In this document: positions 5,070-63,952 of the stretch, one piece after another
Position numbering within the stretch: the first letter of the stretch is position 1
Layout of the letters: each line of letters starts with the position of its first letter
Origin: Malacoraja senta
Taxonomy: Eukaryota
DNA: 64,000 nt
Assembly: GCA_038087875.1 (NCBI GenBank)
Contig: CM075989.1
Location: 21,206,001 to 21,270,000 of the forward strand
Reading direction: 5' to 3'
Program-made: the position numbers and the translations under genes
Notes under the pieces: generated by a model
Told to the model about the DNA's origin: nothing
Databases searched by the model: none
What the model saw: the letters and a program-made list of their open reading frames with translations, nothing else

Positions 5070-5195
5070 GGGGTGTGAGATTGCAACGTTCACGTGGTAT
5101 GCCCTGTTTCGACAAATCGCGTGCGCAATCAAATAAGATCAAGTAGAACAAATTGTCTTGCAACTTTAGGCTGTGCACGCCATACGCAAGAAGAA
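5070..5195 (+). mobile_element. Family 1 HDV-headed short retroposon (internal deletion in the P2 3' strand)
   Basis: TSD gtgactgcctag(g) starting at 5058 and 5196; tail ccatacgcaagaagaa; inserted in an HE1 SINE. Confidence 0.88.
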
Positions 5196-5355
5196 GTGAC
5201 TGCCTAGGTTGTCTCCAGGAGCTCTGGTTTCCTCCTGCAATCCAAAGTCATACAGGTTTATAGCTTATCAAAAATGTGGAAAATCGAAGGTAGACAAAAA
5301 TGTGGAAAATCGAAGGTTGTCCAGCATCTGCAGTTCCTTCTTAAACAAAGGTTTA

Positions 5356-46530: not shown

Positions 46531-46982
46531 GATATTAAGGAATACATAGAATGAACCAAAGGCTCACGAACTTATGAACAACACTATATCTCCATATCCC
46601 AGCCATATCGTGTCTGTGTGAGGGGCCGCCAACACATCAAATGACCTTTTGAAGCACTTTGTAACTGCTGAACACACTGGAGCTTGAAGTCAGGAACTTG
46701 ATGGAAATTTAAAAATAAATTGTGATTTTTCCCAGGAGTTTTATGAGTCCAAGTTCAATCAAACTTGTGGGGACAGCCTCCCATTCAAACAAAAGCTTAG
46801 ATATGTTAAAAACATCAGCTAATACTATGTAGGATGCTTGCCACAATACATTATATGTTTTTTTGAGATTTTGTCCAGGAAAATCTTAAGCAAGAAGAAT
46901 GGAAATATTATTTGGATCTATTTTTCCCTCTTAACGTCATTGTCCTGCCTTCATCCCCTAATCGCTGACACCCGTACCAATC

Positions 46983-47122
46983 TTCTTCTTCTTGCGTATG
47001 GCGTGCACAGCTTAAAGCTGTAGGACAACTTGTTCTATTTGATCTTATTTGATTGTGCACGCCAGGTTGATTGCATTTGTCGAAACAGGGAGGACCACGT
47101 GAAGGTTGCAATCTCCCACCCA
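46983..47122 (-). mobile_element. Family 1 HDV-headed short retroposon (ribozyme fold 47069-47122, two P1 mismatches)
   Basis: 13-bp TSD acccgtaccaatc at 46970-46982 and 47123-47135; tail CCATACGCAAGAAGAAGAA; inside a CR1 fragment. Confidence 0.9.
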
Positions 47123-51197: not shown

Positions 51198-51433
51198 ATC
51201 CTACCCTATAGAGACAATTACACTGTTGTAATCATGTATTGTCTTTCTGCTGACTGGTTAGCACGGAAAAAAAGCTTTTCACTGCACATCGTTACATGTG
51301 ACAATAAATTAAACTCAAACTCACACCTGTATGTCTTTGGAGCACCCGGAGAAATCCCACATGGTCACAGGGAGAATGTACGAACTCTGTACAGACACCA
51401 CCCGTAGTCGGGATTGAACCCAAGGTCTCTGGC

Positions 51434-51639
51434 TTCTTCTTCTTGCGTTTGAGGCAGCAGAAGTCTGCAGCAGGGTGATGCCATCCGGTTCGACATCCGT
51501 AGGTGCCCGCCCTACAAAGGGCGCACGCTCCGGGTTGGCGCCAAGCTGCGGCGCATGCTGCTGTCTCTGTTTGTTGTCGTTCGCCTGACTGAGGTGAGTT
51601 GACAGGACTCACCACGGGGAGGTCGACAACATGAGCCCC
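51434..51639 (-). mobile_element. Short non-autonomous retroposon, family 2 (HDV-like ribozyme head, ACGC(AAG)n tail)
   Basis: 11-bp TSD aggtctctggc at 51423-51433 and 51640-51650; inserted in an HE1 SINE; CpG-rich; tail CTCAAACGCAAGAAGAAG. Confidence 0.9.
51573..51639 (-). ncRNA. HDV-like self-cleaving ribozyme, 67 nt
   Basis: Minus strand: P1 GGGGCUC/GAGUCCU, J1/2 AU, P2 GUUGUCG/CGACAAC, P3 ACC/GGU, L3 UCCCCGU, GU after P1, short weak P4, J4/2 CGAA (candidate catalytic C at 51583). Confidence 0.85.
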
Positions 51640-63533: not shown

Positions 63534-63607
63534 GAGGAACTATGTTTGTGTTTGAACATTGAACATCGCAGCATAGGAACGGGCTCTACTGCCCACATGA
63601 TGCCAAG

Positions 63608-63752
63608 ATCCTCCTTTTTCTTGCATGTGGCGTGCACAGCCTAAAGTTGTAGGACAACTTGTTCTATTTGATCTTATTTGATTGTGCACGTTGGGTTGAT
63701 TGCATTCGTCGAAACAAGGCGGACCACGTGAAGGTCGCAATCTCCCCACCCC
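63608..63752 (-). mobile_element. Short non-autonomous retroposon, family 1 (HDV-like ribozyme head, degenerate AAG-type tail; possibly Ingi/Vingi-dependent)
   Basis: TSD atgccaag at 63600-63607 and 63753-63760; homologous to 46983-47122 and 5070-5195; inserted in a CR1-type tail. Confidence 0.9.
63698..63752 (-). ncRNA. Minimal (P4-less) HDV-like self-cleaving ribozyme, 55 nt
   Basis: Minus strand: P1 GGGGUGG/CCGCCUU (G1-U wobble), J1/2 GGA, P2 GAUUGCG/UGCAAUC, P3 ACC/GGU, L3 UUCACGU, GU after P1 (1-bp P1.1), UUCGA, J4/2 CGAA; G1 abuts the TSD. Confidence 0.85.
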
Positions 63753-63839
63753 ATGCCAAGCTAAACTAATCTCATTCAGCCTATAGATGATCCACATCCC
63801 TCCATCCCCTCATGAACACTCTTGATGCTAGATTATGGT

Positions 63840-63952
63840 CTCAGGGTGTCACTCAGGGTGTCACTCAGGGTGTCACTCAGGGTGTCACTCAGGGTGTCAC
63901 TCAGGGTGTCACTCAGGGTGTCACTCAGGGTGTCACTCAGGGTGTCACTCAG
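63840..63952. repeat. 12-bp minisatellite (CTCAGGGTGTCA) x ~9.4
   Basis: Perfect tandem units. Confidence 0.97.

What the first reader, a model, noticed from the sequence alone, without database searches (positions are those of the whole stretch)
63698..63752. Intact 55-nt minimal (P4-less) HDV-like ribozyme at the exact 5' end of a short retroposon
Seen on the minus strand: GGGGUGG-GGA-GAUUGCG-ACC-UUCACGU-GGU-CCGCCUU-GU-UUCGA-CGAA-UGCAAUC. P1 has 7 bp with a G1-U wobble, P2 7 bp and P3 3 bp. L3 UUCACGU and the single-pair P1.1 match the CPEB3 ribozyme as I recall it, and J4/2 CGAA matches HDV. P4 is reduced to 5 nt. The predicted cleavage site coincides with the TSD boundary (63752/63753). 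A multi-copy, near-minimal HDV fold in a vertebrate genome looks unusual (inference).
Basis: partly seen in the sequence, partly recalled or inferred. Interest (0 to 1): 0.85.

Follow-up and report, generated by a model that had tools for sequence, protein, structure and literature searches.

The report
Minimal self-cutting RNA heads fish retroposon
The first 55 bases of a 145-base jumping element, present in thousands of copies in what is likely a cartilaginous fish, have the layout of the smallest hepatitis-delta-type self-cutting RNAs, a form reported so far mainly from gut phages, and likely cut the element out of longer transcripts; related elements in the same genome also point to the likely source of the CPEB3 self-cutting RNA of mammals.

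Summary
The fold is real. 63752-63698 (-) pairs as a P4-less HDV-like double pseudoknot with catalytic C at 63708, and G1 abuts an 8-bp TSD. This copy is slightly decayed, not 'intact' (three extra G·U pairs). It heads a 145-nt element with at least 5,225 copies, made of the 5' 78 nt and 3' ~45 nt of an autonomous Vingi-like LINE found here; the LINE has the same P4-less head with a better-paired P1. Of 60 consecutive copies, 56 keep the 5' strand and 47 have a TSD within 3 nt of G1. Six Vingi-like families carry the fold with different paired letters; shuffles give none. The core equals that of phage theta ribozymes. Cleavage is untested, Rfam misses it, and inserted copies show no selection on the catalytic C. 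Side result: one sister family scores 57-64 bits on Rfam's CPEB3 model, and published Vingi-2_Gav is nearly letter-identical to CPEB3, suggesting its origin. The scan earlier noted ribozyme-headed retroposons in fungi and a diatom, not this family. Verdict: new variant of a known kind.

The parts
63698..63752 (-). P4-less HDV-like ribozyme fold (G1 = 63752; predicted cut 63753/63752; catalytic C = 63708)
63608..63752 (-). Whole short element (family A), 145 nt, no protein-coding frame
63675..63752 (-). 5' part: first 78 nt of the parent Vingi-like LINE (about 90% identical)
   Evidence: L182, L208, L213
63614..63657 (-). 3' part: last codons, stop and 3' UTR of the parent LINE (86-93% identical)
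63611..63622 (-). Decayed (AAG)n tail
63753..63760 (-). Target-site duplication, 5' copy
63600..63607 (-). Target-site duplication, 3' copy
63560..63800 (-). Older LINE 3'-tail remnant into which the element inserted (both flanks match the uninterrupted copy at 317-407); CR1-type by recall
46982..47122 (-). Second family A copy, 13-bp TSD, P1 damaged
5070..5196 (+). Third family A copy, 12-13-bp TSD, P3 and P2 broken
51433..51639 (-). Family B: independent short element with a canonical HDV-like head (51639-51572, P4 present), (AAG)n tail and 11-bp TSD; 5' part from another Vingi-like LINE

Best explanation
The 55 nt are the 5' end of a 145-nt internally deleted copy of a Vingi-like LINE and have the layout of a P4-less HDV-like ribozyme that likely cuts the element's RNA out of longer host transcripts exactly at its first base. 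Shown: the element is the LINE's 5' 78 nt joined to its 3' end and (AAG)n tail; copies start at G1 with 8-17-bp TSDs; the LINE has the same head. Inferred: a source copy is read through by RNA polymerase II; the nested pseudoknot folds, and C45 with Mg2+ cleaves before G1, leaving a 5'-OH end shielded by the fold; the LINE's endonuclease/reverse transcriptase binds the borrowed 3' end, primes at the tail and copies to G1, so each new copy is full length. After insertion copies decay neutrally; the window copy keeps every pair but is predicted to be slower or to misfold more often.
For: Parent found: L182 and relatives carry the head then an APE+RT frame and the same tail. Parent head has a fully Watson-Crick P1 but for G1·U, and CUAA in J4/2. 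56 of 60 consecutive copies keep the P1 5' strand; 47 of those 56 have a TSD within 3 nt of G1 (41 within 1 nt); control with swapped flanks 2 of 60; 35 of 60 keep every pair and the C (sample picked on an exact 21-nt core). The descriptor recovers the fold 150-212 nt upstream of the endonuclease in 6 LINE families, each with different P1, P2 and P3 letters, J1/2+P2 always 9 nt and C always first in J4/2 (13 distinct hits from 99 regions; 0 in 293 kb shuffled). 14 of 113 metagenome matches to the core pair in P1 and P2, 11 of the 14 within 1 nt of a tRNA end: theta ribozymes, of which four of four tested cleaved and died on C-to-U (PMC10879173, section 8); its supplement holds this P3-L3 core 410 times, the two rows shown with segment lengths 7/2/7/3/7/3/7/2/6/4/7. 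8 of 14 parent loci mapped are 5'-inverted with the inversion running to within about 10 nt of G1.
Against: No cleavage assay. No Rfam hit for family A. No depletion of the catalytic C-to-T variant among copies: 212, against 181 for the C-to-T at the neighbouring loop CpG. A poly(A) RNA run of a related organism shows no pile of molecule starts at G1. The 5-nt loop can form a competing 2-4-bp hairpin that takes the catalytic C, and G-rich nt 5-8 can pair downstream of P2. The descriptor missed four other families (V2, V3, V4, V7), where only the P3/L3 core or a partial fold was seen by eye.
Confidence: 0.8

Rival explanations
1. The head is mainly an internal promoter that starts transcription at G1 (as Pr77 of trypanosome L1Tc also does), and the fold is secondary or no longer cleaves.
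For: Pr77 is both promoter and ribozyme (PMC4035085, passages). Starts at G1 fit either cause.
Against: Across six families the letters change while pairing and the J4/2 C are kept, a signature of RNA structure, not of a DNA motif. By inspection the TTCGA loop misses the B-box consensus (recalled) at two of nine places and varies among copies.
Confidence: 0.1
2. The fold is kept as a structural cap or protein-binding module (protecting the 5' end, helping second-strand joining) and, having lost P4, no longer cuts.
For: R2 ribozyme folds give cap-like protection (PMC13708176, passages). No selection on the C in inserted copies. Competing hairpin.
Against: P4-less phage ribozymes with the same core cleave. 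The parent-to-short-element change CUAA to CGAA spares the C. Something must still make the 5' end at G1.
Confidence: 0.08
3. The pairing is chance in a G-rich 5' end.
For: No Rfam hit; pseudoknot-free folding z about 0.5.
Against: 0 hits in 30 shuffled windows and in 879 kb shuffled on both strands; same fold at the same place in sister families, one scoring 57-64 bits on RF00622.
Confidence: 0.02

Closest known systems
Theta / minimal HDV-like ribozymes of gut phages (Kienbeck 2024, PMC10879173; drz-Mtgn-1, Riccitelli 2014, not read)
   Same: No P4, 54-55 nt, same P3 (ACC/GGU), L3, short L4 and C-N-A-A; same segment lengths as rows in the paper's supplement.
   Different: Animal genome, head of a retrotransposon, no tRNA upstream. 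The paper reports nearly 99% of minimal ribozymes in Caudoviricetes and no theta hit in the human, mouse and protist genomes it searched.
L1Tc/NARTc, ingi/RIME and SIDER of trypanosomes (L1TcRz, Pr77); R2 SIDEs
   Same: LINE plus short internally deleted partner sharing a 5' HDV-like ribozyme and the 3' end (PMC4035085 passages; PMC5786205 parts 1-3).
   Different: Those ribozymes have P4; here P4 is absent, the host is an animal and the LINE is Vingi-like.
Vingi LINEs and their bipartite non-autonomous derivatives (Kojima 2011, not held; PMC5786205; PMC13708176)
   Same: Single APE+RT frame without RNase H, about 3.1 kb, internal-deletion partners.
   Different: [quoted passage not shown]
Mammalian CPEB3 ribozyme (RF00622)
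   Same: L3, J1/4 GU, one-pair P1.1, G1·U, J4/2 CGAA; J1/2+P2 of 9 nt.
   Different: CPEB3 has a 7-bp P4, another P3 and is single-copy and conserved. Family A does not hit RF00622; sister family V1 does.

Membership tests
HDV-like ribozymes | P1 of 7 bp starting with G1 wobble at the cut site | tested here: met
   three wobbles in this copy, one in the parent
HDV-like ribozymes | P2 and 3-bp P3 with 7-nt L3 (U...G for the reverse wobble) in nested order | tested here: met
   criteria from PMC4836649 passages
HDV-like ribozymes | P1.1 between L3 and J1/4 | tested here: met
   one C-G and one U-U by sequence, as in CPEB3
HDV-like ribozymes | Catalytic C first in J4/2 | tested here: met
   63708; C in 52 of 60 copies as CGAA, CTAA, CAAA or CCAA and in all 13 LINE heads parsed
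HDV-like ribozymes | Mg2+- and C-dependent self-cleavage before G1 | not testable with these tools
   needs in vitro assay; RNA reads uninformative
Rfam CPEB3 (RF00622) and other HDV models | Score above the gathering threshold | tested here: not met
   no hit for family A; tRNA-linked minimal ribozymes also stay below threshold (L381 22.8 bits; L310 none)
Minimal (P4-less) HDV-like ribozymes | P4 replaced by a short loop | tested here: met
   5-nt loop in copies and parent
Theta ribozymes in the strict sense | Phage location, usually at a tRNA 3' end | tested here: not met
   upstream is a TSD in varied genomic flanks
Bipartite non-autonomous LINE | 5' and 3' ends of one autonomous LINE, coding region deleted, TSDs | tested here: met
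   about 17-22 nt in the middle do not match the parent
Vingi clade (parent LINE) | Single APE+RT frame, no RNase H | tested here: met
   Pfam on sister frames V1, V2: RT and endonuclease only; parent frame aligns along V2 and ends after the CxC...C motif; parent itself is broken and was not scanned by Pfam
Vingi clade (parent LINE) | RT groups with named Vingi elements, apart from Ingi | tested here: inconclusive
   All ribozyme-headed families form one clade (100/99) apart from two I-group/Nimb-like, one L2-like and two CR1-like rows (labels recalled); parent joins V1, whose head matches published Vingi-2_Gav, at 93/91 on a long branch; no Ingi sequence in the tree

The most novel reading that the evidence does not exclude
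Vingi LINEs are a ribozyme-headed clade that spans the whole HDV-like size range: one lineage independently reached the same P4-less minimal form as phage theta ribozymes, stays catalytic and seeded about ten thousand self-cutting short elements in a vertebrate genome, while another lineage (Vingi-2-like) is the donor of the mammalian CPEB3 ribozyme, which would be a fossil LINE 5' end kept for about 160 million years.
Probability: 0.65. Interest if true: 0.8.

Novelty: new variant of a known kind. Interest (0 to 1): 0.68.

Why it matters
It gives minimal HDV-like ribozymes, so far a phage curiosity, a second home and a clear job in an animal genome, with thousands of natural variants as a ready mutational library. 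It adds a 5' ribozyme to Vingi, a clade now used for RNA-based gene insertion (PMC13708176), where the 5' UTR matters for full-length integration. And it offers a named source and outgroups for the CPEB3 ribozyme, which Bendixsen 2021 (PMC8233481, passages) says has not been found outside mammals; that makes its origin directly testable.

Tried and rejected
Rfam on the window end and on family A copies: no HDV-type hit. RTE as parent: first guess, dropped once the parent proved Vingi-like. The endonuclease family search returned two-ORF, RNase H-type LINEs with the same (AAG)n tail but no matching ends: not the parent. A guess that the element's middle is the start of the endonuclease gave 0 matches; it is the end of the frame. 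Selection test on the catalytic C: negative (212 vs 181); the G-to-A variants are more common at both CpGs (412, 664), which may be propagated subfamilies or strand bias; in the element body the bias is slight (30 vs 22). RNA reads (one poly(A) run of a related organism, about 6% read): element sequence is present on both strands, depth about 140-170 vs 230-310, no start pile; too weak to use. Host gene context: none of 150 of 360 unique-region frames hit Pfam, so intron or intergenic is unknown. No Vingi frame near any of 113 metagenome matches. Papers not held: Ruminski 2011, Webb 2009, Webb and Luptak 2011, Kojima 2011; they, patents or Rfam's full member lists may already note Vingi ribozymes. 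bioRxiv supplements were not seen; one scanned supplement file of PMC10879173 was unreadable.

Full report
Observation. A descriptor for the HDV nested pseudoknot found it and one other site in the window, and nothing in 30 shuffled windows. The catalytic-position C is at 63708 and an 8-bp TSD flanks 63752 and 63608. Both flanks match an uninterrupted LINE tail at 317-407, so the element is an insertion into an older repeat. The copy departs from its family at three places in the head: an extra G in J1/2, and two changes that turn Watson-Crick pairs into G·U in P1 and P2; P1 is about 2.6 kcal/mol weaker than in a typical copy. Reads and contigs of three related organisms confirm that these are minority letters (63717, 63736). 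Rfam does not detect the head, and pseudoknot-free folding is not informative.

The family. The 143-nt query had 952 candidates, 40 scored, 93-95% identical. An exact 21-nt core occurs 5,225 times, reversed control 0; with about 6% mean divergence I infer on the order of ten thousand copies. The window is denser than average: 480 kb of loci not chosen for the family held one fragment besides the parent. I took 60 of the first 61 listed places on contig C1 (one, a parent LINE copy already held, was skipped): 56 keep the P1 5' strand, 47 of these have an 8-17-bp TSD within 3 nt of G1, 41 within 1 nt, against 2 of 60 with swapped flanks; 35 of 60 keep all pairs and the C. The genome is 1.94 Gb; that it is a cartilaginous fish is my recognition of its SINEs and CR1 LINEs from memory.

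The parent. A recalled endonuclease motif gave 47 matches against 1 control and led to single-frame APE+RT LINEs of about 3.1 kb with (AAG)n tails and no RNase H. A protein search and 40 fetched stretches gave L182, which begins with the same P4-less head, continues into such a frame and ends with the element's 3' end. Its 5' region has 37 matches in the genome; full heads (L208, L213) have a Watson-Crick P1 except G1·U, and CUAA. The short element is nt 1-78 of the LINE, about 20 nt without match, and the last about 45 nt. A second short family in the window (51639-51433, 849 candidates) starts at G1 of a canonical fold with P4 and takes its 5' 175 nt from another LINE of the group; that LINE's 3' end was not recovered. 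In an RT tree all these families form one clade (100/99); the family A parent sits on a long branch (93/91) beside the group with V1 and an Anolis protein; no Ingi row was available. I call it Vingi-like.

Evidence for function. The fold was parsed 150-212 nt upstream of the endonuclease in six families, with different letters in P1, P2 and P3, J1/2+P2 always 9 nt and C always opening J4/2 (13 distinct hits from 99 regions, 0 in 293 kb shuffled); four families were missed. The descriptor demands pairing, so the non-circular part is the fixed position and the empty control. The same P3-L3-J1/4-short loop-CNAA core in metagenomes gave 113 stretches (scan truncated); 14 pair in P1 and P2 and 11 of these lie within 1 nt of a tRNA end, some redundant. 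These are theta ribozymes; Kienbeck 2024 (PMC10879173; sections 7 and 8 read, supplement searched) showed four of four to cleave and to need the C, found nearly 99% of minimal ribozymes in phages, and lists this core 410 times. I did not check whether the four tested ones have this exact core. 8 of 14 parent loci are 5'-inverted with the inversion reaching about G1, which fits a template RNA that starts there.

Evidence against or missing. Inserted copies show no protection of the catalytic C (212 C-to-T, control CpG 181; G-to-A 412 and 664): they decay neutrally, which is expected of dead-on-arrival copies but gives no support. One RNA run shows no starts at G1. Competing pairings exist. An internal promoter, as in Pr77, is not excluded.

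Mechanism. Shown: structure of the element, its parent, its boundaries. Inferred from R2 and L1Tc biology (PMC6765202 passages; PMC4035085 passages): read-through transcript, self-cleavage before G1, 5'-OH end protected by the fold, target-primed reverse transcription by the parent protein from the (AAG)n tail to G1. Confidence 0.8 for the family; about even odds that this copy still cuts efficiently.

The CPEB3 link. Heads of family V1 score 63.8, 59.7 and 57.1 bits on RF00622, threshold 35. The supplement of Kojima 2018 prints Vingi-2_Gav nt 2-74 and crocodilian SINE2-1_AMi; compared by eye with the Rfam consensus, Vingi-2_Gav matches 52 of 54 positions outside the distal P4, and the SINE also has CPEB3's P4 arms. 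That paper never mentions CPEB3. Bendixsen 2021 states the ribozyme is unknown outside mammals; reviews suggest domestication of ribozymes in general terms (PMC7761336 section 10; PMC8256844 passages). Searches for Vingi+ribozyme (6 papers), CPEB3 ribozyme+retrotranspos+origin (21), +ancestral+mammal+transpos (3), CPEB3+ribozyme+domesticat (4), minimal HDV-like (11), Vingi+non-LTR+shark (1), and searches showed no paper naming Vingi as ribozyme-headed, as CPEB3's source, or a P4-less form in an animal; most were seen as listings only, and four key papers were not held.

Verdict. Real feature; works like L1Tc/NARTc, with a theta-type minimal ribozyme; new variant of a known kind. Interest 0.68, higher if cleavage and the CPEB3 origin hold.

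Noticed in passing
L105:822-894, L107:808-880, L111:808-880; PMC5786205 supplement: Heads of Vingi-like family V1 pass Rfam's CPEB3 threshold (57-64 bits), and published Vingi-2_Gav and SINE2-1_AMi are nearly letter-identical to the CPEB3 consensus: likely source of the mammalian ribozyme.
   Followed up: partly
window 51433-51639 (-): Second ribozyme-headed short element (family B, canonical P4, at least 40 copies at 94-97%), from a different Vingi-like LINE, inserted in a tRNA-type SINE.
   Followed up: yes
L149:460-3417: Family V2 protein is 89% identical to teleost proteins (eel, cyprinid): probable horizontal transfer between fish lineages.
   Followed up: no
L194, L203, L207, L208, L214, L216, L217, L218: Parent LINE copies made of an inverted 170-470-nt 5' piece running to about G1, joined to a 60-750-nt 3' piece, with over 2 kb missing: twin-priming-like products that may show how bipartite elements arise.
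   Followed up: partly
L118, L122, L178 (V1 heads); L189: Some copies carry tandem repeats of the first 26 nt of the ribozyme at the 5' junction, suggesting repeated template jumps at the RNA's 5' end.
   Followed up: no
family A head, genome-wide: G-to-A exceeds C-to-T at both CpGs of the loop/J4/2 (664 vs 181; 412 vs 212); subfamilies or strand-biased deamination, unexplained.
   Followed up: partly
L166, L171-L176, L183, L184: The family B parent sits in near-identical context on many unplaced contigs, i.e. amplified as part of a larger repeat unit.
   Followed up: no
L051-L100: An abundant young two-ORF LINE with RNase H-like end (1277-aa frames, I/Nimb-like by recall) shares the (AAG)n tail but has no HDV-like head.
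   Followed up: partly
L182:3660-4470: An 800-bp element with terminal inverted repeats interrupts the parent LINE's 3' end.
   Followed up: no
window 63843-63950: Tandem 12-nt minisatellite that gives spurious miRNA hits in Rfam.
   Followed up: no
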